Assembly: GCA_003144275.1 (NCBI GenBank)
Contig: NJBF01000042.1
Span: 1-31,444 of the forward strand
Source of the DNA: Candidatus Heimdallarchaeota archaeon B3_Heim
Lineage (GTDB): Archaea > Asgardarchaeota > Heimdallarchaeia > Hodarchaeales > Hodarchaeaceae
DNA: 31,444 nt
Direction of reading: 5' to 3'
The translations under genes and the position numbers were made by a program. Below, piece after piece: positions 12,895 to 16,198 of this stretch (position 1 is its first letter; every line of letters starts with the position of its first letter). A model generated the notes under the pieces. That model saw nothing but the letters and a program-made list of their open reading frames with translations. It searched no databases and was not told the DNA's origin.

Positions 12895-13446
12895 TTAGGC
12901 CTTAAGAATACCTTGTTTCTTTAACACTTCTTTCGTAATCACCGAAAATGCCTCATGAATGTTTTGATTAGCATAAGCGGACGTCTCTAAATACTTCACA
13001 GGTTGAAAATCAGGGATGACTGTATCTTCTAAAACACCATAATCAATTTGGATCATATCATCGAGATCGGCTTTATTTCCAAGGAGAACAGTAGGAATCC
13101 TATTTTTTCCTAATCTTTCGTCAATTTGACTCTTCCAGTCATATAAATCATCTAAGGAGTCTGGACGTGTTAAGTCGAATACAACCAATGCACCATTTGC
13201 TTTTCGAAAAAATATATCTCTCAGTGTTTGGAATCGTTCTTGTCCAGCAACGTCAAATAAAATTAAATTAACCAAAAATCCATTAACTTCGATTTTCCGA
13301 TTTGAAGGTTCCATACCTATGGTAAGTAAGTAATTAAATTCAAATTTGTTTTCAACAAATCTGCGCACGATACTTGTTTTCCCTACAGCTCCAGTACCGC
13401 ATACTATGATTTTCATATGATATTTGGCTTTCTCCGTGTAGTCCAT
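12895..13446 (-). CDS. Rab-like small GTPase (Ras superfamily)
   Basis: G1 GTGAVGKTS, G2 LTIG, G3 DVAGQERF, G4 NKAD, G5 ETSA; RabF-like segments FFRKA and LVVFDLT; no C-terminal Cys. Confidence 0.95.
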   Translation of the reverse strand: MDYTEKAKYHMKIIVCGTGAVGKTSIVRRFVENKFEFNYLLTIGMEPSNRKIEVNGFLVNLILFDVAGQERFQTLRDIFFRKANGALVVFDLTRPDSLDDLYDWKSQIDERLGKNRIPTVLLGNKADLDDMIQIDYGVLEDTVIPDFQPVKYLETSAYANQNIHEAFSVITKEVLKKQGILKA

Positions 13447-13594: not shown

Positions 13595-15472
13595 ATGATG
13601 TCCATAAAAGAAAAGGTTTCACGAATTCCATGGAAAGAGTACCTCTCAAAACAAATGGTAAAAATTATTGGGCTCCTCCTTATCACTTTTTTGCTGATAA
13701 TTGTCATGATTATCTCTGTAGGCATTGAGGATCTATCAACTGTTACATATGGCAATACAGAGTATGTAGTCGCCATTGTTTTATCAACATTGTGTTTTTT
13801 CCTTGTATTAATCGGGTTTTCGAAAATTGTGCTATTCGATATGGCTGATGAGTTCGGTTTGAGAGATGAATCTGGAAAAATGATGTATAATTCGCGTTTT
13901 TGGCTATTTACACTGTTAGCTTTATCGTTTTGCTCCGCTATATATCTTCTCTTGGATGTTTTCTTACAAGAAACCTATTTACAACTTCTTCCAGTAATTT
14001 TTATGCGTGGAATTTTGGATTACTTTGAACTCGACATAGAGAATTTATCTGATGTTGATGGAAGGAAATTTTACGAAACAGCAAGGAATCTCTATTTTGG
14101 TGGATTTTTTCTTCTAATAATTGCATTCTCAATTATTGTTTTTCTTATAATTTTGACAACTTTTGCAAGACGTAGAGTTGTTAGAAAATTCAAAAAAGAG
14201 GAAGAAGTCGAAGAAAAAGAAAAAGAAGGGATTAAAACTATATATAAACTATTTGCTTGGATTCTAATTCCGTTTTTGGCATTTTTTGTAATAGCTTTAC
14301 AAAATACATCTATCGGACCTATCGTTACAATTGGATATCTGCTTGCAGCAATATGGTGGATATATCAAGTCTTAAAGGTGATTTTCCAAATTGTGTGGGG
14401 AGGTGTAAAGATTACAGCTTTTATCACAAGTGTCAATTTACTTGTGATTATTCCCCTCATTGCTACTTTATGGCTACTCCCTACATTTCTTTGGGGGATT
14501 TGGGATACGGTTCAGGCAGTCACTGATTCATCCTTTACTATGCCTGAGCTTACGAATCTGTTTGTAGATTCAATAATTACTAGACTTGTTGATTTTAATA
14601 ATTTAATTCAACTCGATTTCATAATAATAACAATTATTGCTACTTTGGTAGTAGGATTTGCTGAAGGATTTGCTATTATCGCGATCTTTTCTGCTTTATC
14701 TAGAGGTATAGAAGTAGCGCGAAGTGGACAAGTTCTTGCACGATCTCCACCAAAGGTTATGGTATTTTCTAAATATCTTGTTATGCTTGGTGTGTGGGTT
14801 TCACTTCTATGGGATAGCTTTGGAGCAATAATTGAAATGTTAAAAAATCAAATTAATTTAAACATACAATTAACTGTGCCTAACTTCTTTCATCTGCTTT
14901 ATAATCAGGTAGTTTTACCTATTTCGGATTATTTAGCAAAAAATTGGTCTACACTAGAATATCTTCCTTACTTGATTCTTCCAATCATTTTCATTTTCTC
15001 AGGAGCGTTTAAATTCCTATCTGTTGCATTAGTCACCCCGAAAGTCAAAGATAGGGGTGAAGTATTCTTCCTCCTCGTGTCTACTTCCTTTGTCTTGATC
15101 ATCACAAATATCTTAGGTGACATTTACGAATTAGCCATACCAGATGCTCCTTTACGTTCTCTCTCGGGTTTAACAACCATTCTTTCTTCTGCTGTTGGCA
15201 CCTTTGAAAATGTAGAATCTGTTGCTTTTTATGGTGGATTCCTATTTGGAATTGTTTTCATGCTTTGGAAGGCTATCAAACGAGAAAGTACCCCAACAAG
15301 TACTTCTGCTCCAACTGATGATAGTACTCTCCCATCAATTGATACTCCAACTAAGGAATCTGTTATTAAGGAAACAACTATTTTGGTAGATATTGAAGAT
15401 GCTGAACCCGATGAGACTCTCGATTTGGAATTAAGCAGTGGAAAAGAAGAAGCTGAGAATGTTGAACAATAG
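13595..15472 (+). CDS. Polytopic membrane protein (~12 TM) with acidic S/T/P-rich C-terminal tail, function unknown
   Basis: 625-aa ORF with many hydrophobic segments, charged loop RRRVVRKFKKEEEVEEKEKE, tail STPTSTSAPTDD...EEAENVEQ. Confidence 0.8.
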   Translation: MMSIKEKVSRIPWKEYLSKQMVKIIGLLLITFLLIIVMIISVGIEDLSTVTYGNTEYVVAIVLSTLCFFLVLIGFSKIVLFDMADEFGLRDESGKMMYNSRFWLFTLLALSFCSAIYLLLDVFLQETYLQLLPVIFMRGILDYFELDIENLSDVDGRKFYETARNLYFGGFFLLIIAFSIIVFLIILTTFARRRVVRKFKKEEEVEEKEKEGIKTIYKLFAWILIPFLAFFVIALQNTSIGPIVTIGYLLAAIWWIYQVLKVIFQIVWGGVKITAFITSVNLLVIIPLIATLWLLPTFLWGIWDTVQAVTDSSFTMPELTNLFVDSIITRLVDFNNLIQLDFIIITIIATLVVGFAEGFAIIAIFSALSRGIEVARSGQVLARSPPKVMVFSKYLVMLGVWVSLLWDSFGAIIEMLKNQINLNIQLTVPNFFHLLYNQVVLPISDYLAKNWSTLEYLPYLILPIIFIFSGAFKFLSVALVTPKVKDRGEVFFLLVSTSFVLIITNILGDIYELAIPDAPLRSLSGLTTILSSAVGTFENVESVAFYGGFLFGIVFMLWKAIKRESTPTSTSAPTDDSTLPSIDTPTKESVIKETTILVDIEDAEPDETLDLELSSGKEEAENVEQ

Positions 15473-15606
15473 CTCTATAATCAGTAACGTAACAAATTTA
15501 TGGATCTTACTCGGAAAATGAATGTAAAATGGTAAGAATACATAATCGGAAGCTCTCCCAGAATCTTACTAGGAATCTTAAATCCTTTGCAATAAGACGT
15601 TCTGAT

Positions 15607-15813
15607 ACCTTCAAATTTTATGACTACCGTTCTGAAAGACTTACCCAAATAGGACAGTTAGGAATAATTATCCCAAACCATTTTTGGAGCTGTTCTTCCT
15701 GATTCATCGACACGCGCCTACTGGCTAGCAGGTCTTACCACCTCTCCACAGGCATTTAAGGTCTCCGCGGAACTCTCGGCGACCATCAAGTAAAATCAGG
15801 TGTTGATTTTACC
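15607..15813 (-). ncRNA. Putative IS607/TnpB-type omega-RNA (reRNA): ~187-nt scaffold plus ~20-nt guide
   Basis: GC-rich island in AT-rich DNA. The minus strand reads like a tnpB 3' tail (MVAESSAETLNACGEVVRP..., SMNQE) and carries GCCTGTGGAGAG...GTAAGACC...GTCGATGAATCAGGAA, then ATTTGGGTAAGTCTTTCAGAACGG. Hairpins: GTAAAATCA/TGATTTTAC, GGTC-G-CCG/CGG-A-GACC, CCTGCT/AGTAGG. Confidence 0.7.
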
Positions 15814-16078
15814 AATTGATTAGGAGCGTTTTCTTGTTATAAACCTTATACACTCCATGTTCTAAAATAATTTTTGTAATTACCCTTTATTTTAGGCTCA
15901 AGTGGTTACTTTTCTAAACATTTTAACCATATTGTAATGAGATCGATTAATCATCCTATTATGTTCCTATTTTCCCCTCCCCTATCTTTTCTTTCCTTGA
16001 GTTACTTCTTATTACTCCATCCGTTCCCCGGTTCATTTGTCCATATTTCTCTAAATTTGTCCATAAATCAGTTGACTG
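15627..16078 (-). mobile_element. Non-autonomous IS607-like element (MITE-like, no tnpA/tnpB)
   Basis: Right end ...CAGAACGG at 15627. Candidate left end CAGTCAAC at 16078 is followed by 10-bp-period repeats ATGGACAAAT/TTAGAGAAAT/ATGGACAAAT. End motifs were recognised from memory of IS607 ends; the left boundary is less certain. Confidence 0.55.
15837..15847 (-). promoter_or_regulatory. Candidate TATA box for the omega-RNA-like unit
   Basis: Minus strand AAGG-TTTATAA (TATA 15843-15837); a standard -26 spacing puts the TSS at ~15813, the first base of the 5' hairpin. Confidence 0.45.
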
Positions 16079-16198
16079 CTATCAACCCTTTTCACATACA
16101 GTTTCGAAGAAAAAGGAGATCTGTAAATTAATTTATTCTGAATATCATTGATTTTTTTAGCACACTTCATTAATGCATAATCAGTTGAGTAGACTATA

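What the first reader, a model, noticed from the sequence alone, without database searches (positions are those of the whole stretch)
15607..15847. Orphan TnpB-type guide RNA (omega-RNA) with its own promoter and no nuclease gene
Seen: in an apparently empty intergenic gap, the minus strand has a TATA box (15843-15837), a 9-bp hairpin starting at the predicted TSS, further hairpins, a tnpB-tail fossil (AESSAETLNACGEVVRP / SMNQE) and an end ATTTGGGTAAGTCTTTCAGAACGG at 15627. No tnpB or tnpA ORF lies nearby. Established: TnpB nucleases use an RNA from the tnpB 3' end and element right end, with flanking DNA as guide; IS607 TnpBs use RAGATH-18-like RNAs. Inference: a stand-alone ~187-nt scaffold plus guide UAGUCAUAAAAUUUGAAGGU that loads a TnpB, or a nuclease-dead regulatory TnpB, encoded elsewhere. 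It would be an RNA-only parasite or a domesticated programmable guide in an Asgard archaeon.
Basis: partly seen in the sequence, partly recalled or inferred. Interest (0 to 1): 0.78.

Follow-up and report, generated by a model that had tools for sequence, protein, structure and literature searches.

The report
Nuclease-less mini-transposon carrying TnpB guide RNA
The flagged "orphan guide RNA" is the right half of a 459-bp gene-less miniature copy of a TnpB insertion sequence in an Asgard-type archaeon; it keeps the parent's promoter and guide-RNA scaffold and probably borrows the nuclease from full copies elsewhere, a kind of element already described.

Summary
The sequence features are real. 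They are not a lone RNA gene in an empty gap. Window 15627-16085 (minus strand) is a 459-bp internally deleted copy of a ~1.65-kb tnpB-only insertion sequence. That element has at least 8 copies with intact or contig-truncated tnpB in this genome. The mini copy keeps the whole left end, including the parent's own TATA promoter. This is fused near the predicted transcription start to the last ~125 nt of tnpB plus the right end, which is the omega-RNA (reRNA) scaffold.

- **Mobility:** a congeneric genome and environmental contigs carry the seamless empty site, AAGGG followed directly by the proposed guide. This fixes both ends and shows the element moved.
- **Family:** GG at both junctions, no target duplication, a G-rich flank motif and a sub-threshold RAGATH-18 match point to an IS607-like element. 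No transposase that could move it was found in the assembly.
- **RNA fold:** the scaffold is as well preserved in the gene-less copies as in full copies.
- **Not tested:** expression and loading onto TnpB in trans remain inference.

Stand-alone, mobilised omega-RNAs are already published. Verdict: a new member of a known kind, of modest interest.

The parts
15627..16085 (-). Whole 459-bp gene-less miniature element (left end fused to right end; tnpB deleted)
   Evidence: Its left and right parts match the two ends of the 1.65-kb full element. The empty site in congener G013 joins 16086 directly to 15626. An environmental contig skips exactly 459 nt.
16086..16090 (-). Flanking target motif AAGGG, the predicted TAM, ending in the GG core
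   Evidence: RGGG precedes the left end in essentially all full and mini copies. Published IS607 TnpB TAMs are GAGGG, AGGAG and TGGG.
15821..16085 (-). Left-end portion, with a subterminal palindrome near 16084-16069 and the promoter region
   Evidence: It aligns to the left ends of the full copies and of sister minis, at 68% identity to the C82 full copy.
15837..15846 (-). Archaeal TATA box (GGTTTATAAC), the native tnpB promoter of the element family
   Evidence: The block is conserved at the same place in full copies, upstream of the tnpB ATG, and in all minis. The start site near 15815 is inferred from spacing only.
15785..15820 (-). Copy-specific 5' hairpin (5 bp + 9 bp stems, loop ACACC) between promoter and scaffold
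   Evidence: It is present in the sequence. No other copy in 22 genomes shares it; all others match only from 15784/15783 onward.
15627..15783 (-). Omega-RNA / reRNA scaffold (157 nt): tnpB 3'-tail fossil 15783-15658 plus the right end
   Evidence: It is 82-87% identical to scaffolds behind intact tnpB genes. 29 of 30 consensus base pairs are intact. The family shows compensatory changes.
15696..15752 (-). RAGATH-18-like core (k-turn-type motif)
   Evidence: Rfam RF03064 scores 23.6 bits, E 0.087, below the gathering score of 44.9. The same place in a full copy scores 25.5 bits.
15607..15626 (-). Predicted 20-nt guide, taken from the flanking DNA
   Evidence: It lies directly 3' of the conserved end, and this position is unrelated among all copies. 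In G013 the same 20-mer, with one mismatch at position 18, sits right after AAGGG.

Best explanation
Window 15627-16085 (minus strand) is a non-autonomous miniature derivative of an IS607-like insertion sequence that encodes only TnpB. It is PATE/MITE-like.

**Shown**
- An internal deletion removed tnpB.
- The left end, with the native TATA promoter, is fused to the omega-RNA scaffold (last ~125 nt of tnpB plus the right end).
- The element inserted without a target duplication, right after an AAGGG motif.
- Its RNA fold is intact.
- At least 6 complete intact tnpB genes (plus contig-cut copies) with 82-87% identical scaffolds lie elsewhere in the genome.

**Inferred**
1. The promoter drives a transcript of roughly 210 nt that reads through the right end into the flank.
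2. A TnpB made by a full copy binds the scaffold in trans.
3. The complex recognises AAGGG plus the 20-nt guide, which is the empty donor joint left when the element excises.
4. Cutting that site makes the cell re-copy the element by recombination.

On this model the mini is a parasite of the full element: it borrows the nuclease for retention and an as yet unidentified transposase for movement. The right end reads AACGG where the target motif reads AAGGG. That one-base difference may spare the occupied site from cutting; this too is inferred.
For: **Architecture**
- The scaffold has about 20 homologues. Eight or more lie directly behind TNB-domain ORFs of 428-463 aa that end in the same peptide.
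- Mapping onto the full element gives its left end (about positions 1-290 of the element) plus its last ~175 nt (about 1480-1654) in this copy and in sister minis on contigs C54, C64 and C68.

**Mobility**
- G013 has a seamless empty site with flanks 95-96% identical.
- Environmental contigs from two studies bridge the element, one skipping exactly 459 nt.
- A full copy is nested in a mini, again without duplication.
- Type-A minis are 93-98% alike over their whole length at 10 different loci.

**IS607-like signs**
- GG at both junctions and RGGG at the flank fit the published GG core and G-rich TAMs.
- A congener carries a serine tnpA remnant next to a TnpB 60% identical, with a homologous scaffold and the same end.

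**RNA**
- Seven helices are 77-98% paired, against 21-74% when partners are slid. Compensatory changes occur in five of them.
- Minis have 1.36 broken pairs of 30, full copies 1.71, and unclassified copies with neither promoter nor long ORF 4.9.

**Precedent:** stand-alone omega-RNAs work in trans, and PATEs often encode omega-RNAs.
Against: - Transcription, processing and TnpB loading are untested here.
- The scaffold differs by 13-18% from every scaffold next to a tnpB, so compatibility is assumed.
- Neither an IS607-type serine TnpA nor a Y1 TnpA is in this 94%-complete assembly, so current mobility is unproven.
- The nearest sampled copy is only 87% identical in the scaffold and about 67% in the left end. 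This sits oddly with an insertion younger than the 4-5% flank divergence from G013.
- The uniform conservation of type-A minis reflects recent copying, not selection.
- The hand-drawn helices rest on related sequences and are partly derived from them.
- The TnpB protein is closer to ISDra2 TnpB, from a Y1-type element, than to the 384-aa 'Transposase' chain 8iaz, which I take to be the solved IS607 TnpB (ISFba1) though I did not confirm its identity.
Confidence: 0.85

Rival explanations
1. It is a mobile but functionally silent relic. The element is a deletion derivative that was carried along by a transposase, and its RNA is either not made or not used by TnpB. The scaffold looks intact only because the right end is needed as DNA for transposition, or because the copy is young.
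For: No expression data exist for this organism. The uniform 93-98% identity of type-A minis shows recency rather than selection. The window fold is no more stable than shuffled sequence (z -0.68). The RAGATH-18 match is below threshold.
Against: Three mini subtypes all keep the promoter and the full scaffold, and in each the scaffold begins within about 10 nt of the same point. Minis keep base pairs as well as full copies, while copies with neither promoter nor ORF decay. This copy has diverged 13% or more from every other yet retains 29 of 30 pairs. Published stand-alone omega-RNAs function in trans.
Confidence: 0.3
2. It is a domesticated, host-serving programmable guide RNA gene, for example one that loads a nuclease-dead TnpB-like regulator to control a host gene.
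For: The RNA part has a promoter and no nuclease gene nearby. TnpB-derived repressors that use omega-RNAs are known in bacteria (literature listed).
Against: It has both transposon ends and is absent from the orthologous site in a congener and in environmental contigs, so it is a recent insertion and not a fixed host gene. The guide is simply the flank and has no other motif-adjacent match in the genome or in viral contigs. In the TnpB translation of the family the RuvC-II (VTEDL) and RuvC-III (DRDQN) motifs are recognisable by eye; this was not formally tested.
Confidence: 0.04
3. The family is an IS200/IS605-type (Y1 transposase, single-strand 'peel and paste') PATE rather than IS607-like. 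The RNA story stays the same but the transposition chemistry differs.
For: The TnpB is nearest to ISDra2 TnpB (E 2e-47, against 1e-30 for chain 8iaz, presumed the IS607-type TnpB). A subterminal palindrome lies near the left end, and insertion is seamless and 3' of a fixed motif. Y1 remnants exist in two congeners.
Against: GG is shared by the left flank and the right terminus in all copies. The target motif is G-rich like IS607 TAMs. The core is RAGATH-18-like. The only transposase gene found linked to this TnpB/scaffold lineage is a serine recombinase. The Y1 genes in congeners sit beside an unrelated TnpB type.
Confidence: 0.15

Closest known systems
Stand-alone (effector-less) omega-RNAs and PATE-like minimal elements of OMEGA/TnpB transposons (Altae-Tran et al. 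2021 as summarised in PMC10691335; Meers et al. 2023, PMC10055086)
   Same: It is a gene-less element with both transposon ends that keeps the omega-RNA region. It is mobilised, sits in the same genome as effector-bearing copies, and is expected to use TnpB in trans.
   Different: The host is an archaeon (Asgard-type according to earlier scan notes). The ends are IS607-like with a GG core rather than Y1-type hairpin ends. The parent's TATA promoter is retained and fused close to the scaffold's 5' end. This copy also has a unique 5' hairpin.
IS607-family TnpB with RAGATH-18-derived reRNA (ISFba1, PMC11061315; CboIStron, doi 10.1101/2023.11.20.567912)
   Same: Both have a scaffold from the tnpB 3' end plus the right end, with a k-turn-type core and a 20-nt guide taken from the flank. 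Both have a G-rich TAM next to the left end, a GG core at both junctions, no target duplication and a precise donor joint.
   Different: No serine TnpA lies in the element or in this genome. The Rfam RAGATH-18 score is below threshold. The scaffold is 157-167 nt rather than 187. The TnpB (426-463 aa) is closer by sequence to ISDra2 TnpB.
Haloarchaeal PATEs and IS1341-type tnpB-only elements (Haloquadratum walsbyi, PMC3119063)
   Same: These are archaeal, lack a transposase, cause no target duplication and arise from tnpB elements by core deletion. Some retain part of the tnpB C-terminal coding region. They show strain-specific presence or absence even where no intact transposase is found.
   Different: Those elements are defined by near-terminal palindromes of IS605 type, and their RNA content was not analysed. 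Here the retained part is precisely promoter plus omega-RNA scaffold.

Membership tests
Stand-alone omega-RNA / PATE-like non-autonomous TnpB element | Both ends homologous to those of a tnpB-bearing element in the same genome | tested here: met
   The left and right parts map to the two ends of the 1.65-kb element.
Stand-alone omega-RNA / PATE-like non-autonomous TnpB element | No protein-coding gene inside | tested here: met
   Within or overlapping 15627-16085 the ORF list shows only frames of 55-64 aa that run across the element's ends into unrelated flank (15481-15648, 15529-15702, 15937-16131); none were searched against Pfam. The tnpB tail is cut by an in-frame TAG. No TNB match lies on the contig.
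Stand-alone omega-RNA / PATE-like non-autonomous TnpB element | Retains the omega-RNA scaffold with its fold | tested here: met
   The full 157-nt scaffold is present and 29 of 30 family base pairs are intact.
Stand-alone omega-RNA / PATE-like non-autonomous TnpB element | Evidence of mobilisation (empty site) | tested here: met
   A seamless empty site is in G013 and in environmental contigs, one with a joint skipping exactly 459 nt.
Stand-alone omega-RNA / PATE-like non-autonomous TnpB element | RNA is expressed and guides TnpB in trans | not testable with these tools
   No RNA run holds the stretch. A wet-lab assay is needed.
RAGATH-18 RNA (Rfam RF03064) | Covariance-model score at or above the gathering threshold (44.9 bits) | tested here: not met
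   The score is 23.6 bits here and 25.5 bits in a full copy, each over the whole model and at the homologous place.
IS607 family | Serine-recombinase TnpA (N-terminal HTH) in the element or genome | tested here: not met
   The only Resolvase-domain gene in the genome is Hin-like, with a C-terminal HTH. A pseudogenised serine tnpA lies next to a 60%-identical TnpB in congener G007.
IS607 family | GG core dinucleotide at both junctions, no target-site duplication, precise donor joint | tested here: met
   The left flank ends ...GGG and the right end ...CGG in nearly all copies; three degraded or diverged copies differ. The empty site is seamless.
IS607 family | G-rich TAM / target motif next to the left end | tested here: inconclusive
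   An RGGG flank consensus is seen. It resembles the published GAGGG and TGGG motifs. TAM activity itself was not assayed.
IS200/IS605 (Y1 transposase) family | Y1 HUH TnpA available; distinct left-flank and right-end cleavage motifs with subterminal hairpins | tested here: not met
   The genome has no PF01797 match. Only 2 of 22 congeners have remnants, and these sit beside an unrelated TnpB. Both junctions share GG.
TnpB (OMEGA effector) for the parent element | OrfB_IS605 RuvC domain, TNB zinc-ribbon domain and HTH | tested here: met
   Pfam PF01385, PF07282 and PF12323 all score above cut-off. The full-length match to ISDra2 TnpB has E 2e-47.

The most novel reading that the evidence does not exclude
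The gene-less minis may be a self-sustaining 'guide-only' lineage under selection to express omega-RNA. Three subtypes keep the parent promoter joined near the transcription start to the exact 5' edge of the scaffold, and they outnumber nuclease-coding copies 14 to 2-3 in a sister genome. That would be a natural case of many dispersed trans-acting guides served by a few nucleases in an Asgard archaeon. Functionally it would be a step toward the separation of guide and effector seen in CRISPR.
Probability: 0.12. Interest if true: 0.6.

Novelty: new member of a known kind. Interest (0 to 1): 0.3.

Why it matters
The finding gives a cleanly bounded archaeal example of a guide-RNA-only mini-transposon. 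Both ends, the target motif, the guide and the matching natural empty site are in hand. A TnpB, scaffold, TAM and target set could therefore be tested directly.

It also shows that in this archaeal genus the nuclease-less copies can outnumber the nuclease-coding ones, and that they move although no transposase is visible in the assemblies.

It does not reveal a new kind of system. Stand-alone mobilised omega-RNAs and PATEs that carry them are published. This scan had already flagged this stretch and characterised sister copies in the same genome.

Tried and rejected
- **Rfam at gathering thresholds:** nothing over the whole window. A pooled scan of 11 loci at E 1 or below lost the weak RAGATH-18 signal because of the larger search space.
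- **RNA evidence:** no RNA holder is listed for this stretch, so expression could not be examined.
- **Guide search in the genome:** no second site with a GGG-type motif and a near-perfect match.
- **Guide search in viral contigs:** no exact match to the 20-mer.
- **Metagenome scan with a 19-mer spanning GG plus guide:** 8 hits, all in unrelated contexts and therefore chance.
- **More distant congeners (G018, G020, G003):** the insertion point itself is not alignable, so they cannot tell insertion from excision.
- **Apparent 'solo left ends' on C1, C100 and C59:** these are contig ends, not real fragments.
- **The genome's one Resolvase-domain gene:** rejected as the mobilising enzyme. It has Hin-like domain order, sits on contig C2 with no tnpB-domain match, and only chance-level DNA matches to the element.
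- **Y1 TnpA remnants in two congeners:** they sit beside an unrelated TnpB type.
- **Single-sequence folding of the proposed RNA:** not informative (z -0.68).

Full report
**Observation**

- TTTATAA at 15843-15837.
- A 9-bp hairpin at 15812-15790, which extends by 5 more pairs to 15820-15785.
- A reading-frame fossil from 15783 that spells VAESSAETLNACGEVVRPASQ, followed by an in-frame TAG.
- A conserved terminus ending ...CAGAACGG at 15627.
- The 20 nt that follow (15626-15607).

One detail is wrong. 'SMNQE' is out of frame; the tnpB frame reads ARVDESGRT there. No ORF of note lies in the gap. No TnpB zinc-ribbon domain match lies on this contig.

**What the block is**

A whole-genome search found about 20 homologues of 15627-15783 at 74-87% identity. 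Eight or more of them lie directly behind ORFs of 428-463 aa. These ORFs carry the TNB domain and end with the same peptide...AESSAETLNACGEVVRPASEQARVDESGRTAP.... One such protein has the OrfB_IS605, TNB and HTH Pfam domains. It aligns end to end with ISDra2 TnpB at E 2e-47.

All 17 genomic copies lose similarity immediately after ...CAGAACGG. This fixes the right end at 15627 and makes the following bases a copy-specific guide.

**It is a miniature transposon, not a lone RNA gene**

Comparison of full copies with long flanks bounds the element at about 1654 bp with tnpB as its only gene. Mapped onto it, the window copy and sister copies on contigs C54, C64 and C68 contain the first ~290 nt (left end) joined to the last ~175 nt.

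It is therefore the parent's native promoter.

Three mini subtypes exist, with the TATA block 33, 53 or about 63 nt before the scaffold. In all of them the left-end side stops at the same ...AATCAATCAG region near the predicted transcription start. The right-end side starts within about 10 nt of GTCGCCGAGAG. The extra ~30 nt in the window copy is the hairpin. No other copy in 22 genomes shares it, so there is no evidence that it has a conserved role.

**Mobility and boundaries**

- The closest congener, G013, has flanks 95-96% identical but lacks window 15627-16085. In minus orientation it reads ...GTGAAAAGGG followed directly by the proposed guide, with one mismatch at position 18. There is no target duplication.
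- Public metagenome contigs laid on the window bridge the same interval. One cold-seep contig skips exactly 459 nt. A 5.3-kb marine-sediment contig joins 15608 to 16085 through a diverged copy of the guide region. The element-specific left end has no cover in four runs.
- A full copy on C96 is inserted inside another mini, right after ...TAGGG, again seamlessly.
- Ten type-A minis at different loci in G000 and G013 are 93-98% alike along their whole length, with sharp edges. Minis therefore transpose as minis.
- G013 holds 14 minis against 2-3 full copies. G000 holds about 8 against 8-11.

**Which transposon family**

- Nearly every left flank ends in RGGG and nearly every right end in ...CGG; the few exceptions are degraded or diverged copies.
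- Published work on IS607 elements reports a strict GG core dinucleotide at both junctions, no duplication, a precise donor joint and a TGGG target that equals the TAM.
- IS607 TnpBs use RAGATH-18-derived RNAs with G-rich TAMs, AGGAG or GAGGG.
- Rfam's RAGATH-18 model matches the homologous place in the window (23.6 bits) and in a full copy (25.5 bits) over its full length. Both scores are below the 44.9-bit gathering score, so membership in that Rfam family is not met.
- In congener G007 a decayed serine-recombinase tnpA sits just upstream of a TnpB 60% identical to this family's. That element has a homologous scaffold and a ...GGAACGG terminus.
- Against this, the TnpB protein is nearer to ISDra2 TnpB than to the 384-aa chain 8iaz, which I presume to be the solved IS607 TnpB.

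I therefore call the family IS607-like and keep a Y1-type alternative at about 15%.

The genome is 94% complete. It has no Y1 TnpA, and its only Resolvase-domain gene is Hin-like. The enzyme that moves these elements is not identified.

**RNA structure**

I aligned 47 distinct scaffolds from 8 genomes and scored seven helices, including the RAGATH-18-type P1. They are 77-98% canonically paired, against 21-74% when partners are slid by one or two columns. Compensatory double changes occur in P2, P3, P5, P6 and P7, and there are many strand-specific G-U pairs. RNAalifold on the 17 genomic copies also found compensated pairs.

| Copy class | Mean broken pairs (of 30) |
|---|---|
| Minis | 1.36 |
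| Full copies | 1.71 |
| Unclassified copies, neither promoter nor long ORF (incl. contig-edge copies) | 4.9 |
| Window copy | 1 |

The fold has been kept where coding constraint is gone. The same strand is also the transposed DNA strand, and the helices were partly derived from these sequences, so this is supportive rather than decisive.

**Mechanism**

Shown: the architecture, the boundaries, the empty site, the presence of tnpB genes with intact reading frames elsewhere (RuvC-II and RuvC-III motifs recognisable by eye), and preservation of the fold.

Inferred from published TnpB biology: the promoter makes an RNA consisting of the scaffold plus about 20 nt of flank. A TnpB from a full copy binds it in trans. 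The complex cuts AAGGG-plus-guide, which is exactly the donor joint seen in G013. Recombination then restores the element.

The guide has no other motif-adjacent target in the genome and none in viral contigs. This fits homing or retention, not host regulation or defence.

**Novelty**

Stand-alone, mobilised omega-RNAs that work in trans, and PATEs that often encode omega-RNAs, are published. Archaeal PATEs derived from tnpB elements have been known since 2011. This scan had already flagged this very stretch as a non-autonomous IS607-like element, and had followed up sister copies and the nested C96 locus in the same genome. My independent analysis agrees with those notes.

New here are the natural empty alleles for this copy, the copy-specific hairpin, the mini-to-full ratio in G013, and the comparison of pair preservation between copy classes. 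The finding is a well-documented new member of a known kind.

Noticed in passing
L005 (G000 contig C96) 1279-1668 and upstream; compare L017 (C82:8650-9094): A full tnpB element is inserted inside the left end of an older mini of a third subtype, right after ...TAGGG and without duplication. This leaves two scaffolds 26 nt apart. It is a nested insertion, not an array.
   Followed up: yes
G013 loci L077, L080, L082, L084-L090, L095, L096; G000 C54:20198-20668, C64:428-895: Type-A minis are 93-98% identical along their whole length at different loci, and they outnumber full copies 14 to 2-3 in G013. This points to a recent burst, yet no matching transposase was found.
   Followed up: partly
L047 and L048 (G007:C14:392346-393993, G007:C59:1-1832): An IS607-type unit lies at contig ends. 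It has a serine-recombinase tnpA remnant (with an in-frame TGA) followed by a TnpB 60% identical to this family's, a homologous scaffold and a ...GGAACGG terminus. It is the only transposase link found for the lineage.
   Followed up: partly
window 16085-16081 (minus strand) and the left ends of other copies: The left end begins TTGAT or TTGTT, the same pentamer as the ISDra2 TAM, although the empty site shows it belongs to the element. I cannot say whether this is coincidence or a vestige.
   Followed up: no
window 15627-15631 versus 16086-16090 (minus strand): The right end reads AACGG where the target motif reads AAGGG. This single-base difference at the position before the GG core could keep TnpB from cutting the occupied site.
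   Followed up: no
window 12895-13446 (minus strand): A 183-aa Ras-family small GTPase (Pfam Ras, E 4e-41; also Roc and Arf) lies here. Such proteins are typical of Asgard archaea, which fits the taxon given in earlier scan notes.
   Followed up: no
G000 C93:25271-25418 (L016): A solo right-end/scaffold copy sits here with no left end or promoter upstream and 7 of 30 pairs broken. It is a decaying fragment and serves as an internal contrast to the minis.
   Followed up: partly
window 15472-15626: A transcript reading out of the element on the minus strand would run antisense toward the 3' end of the convergent 625-aa gene (13595-15472, plus strand). Any effect on that gene is unknown.
   Followed up: no
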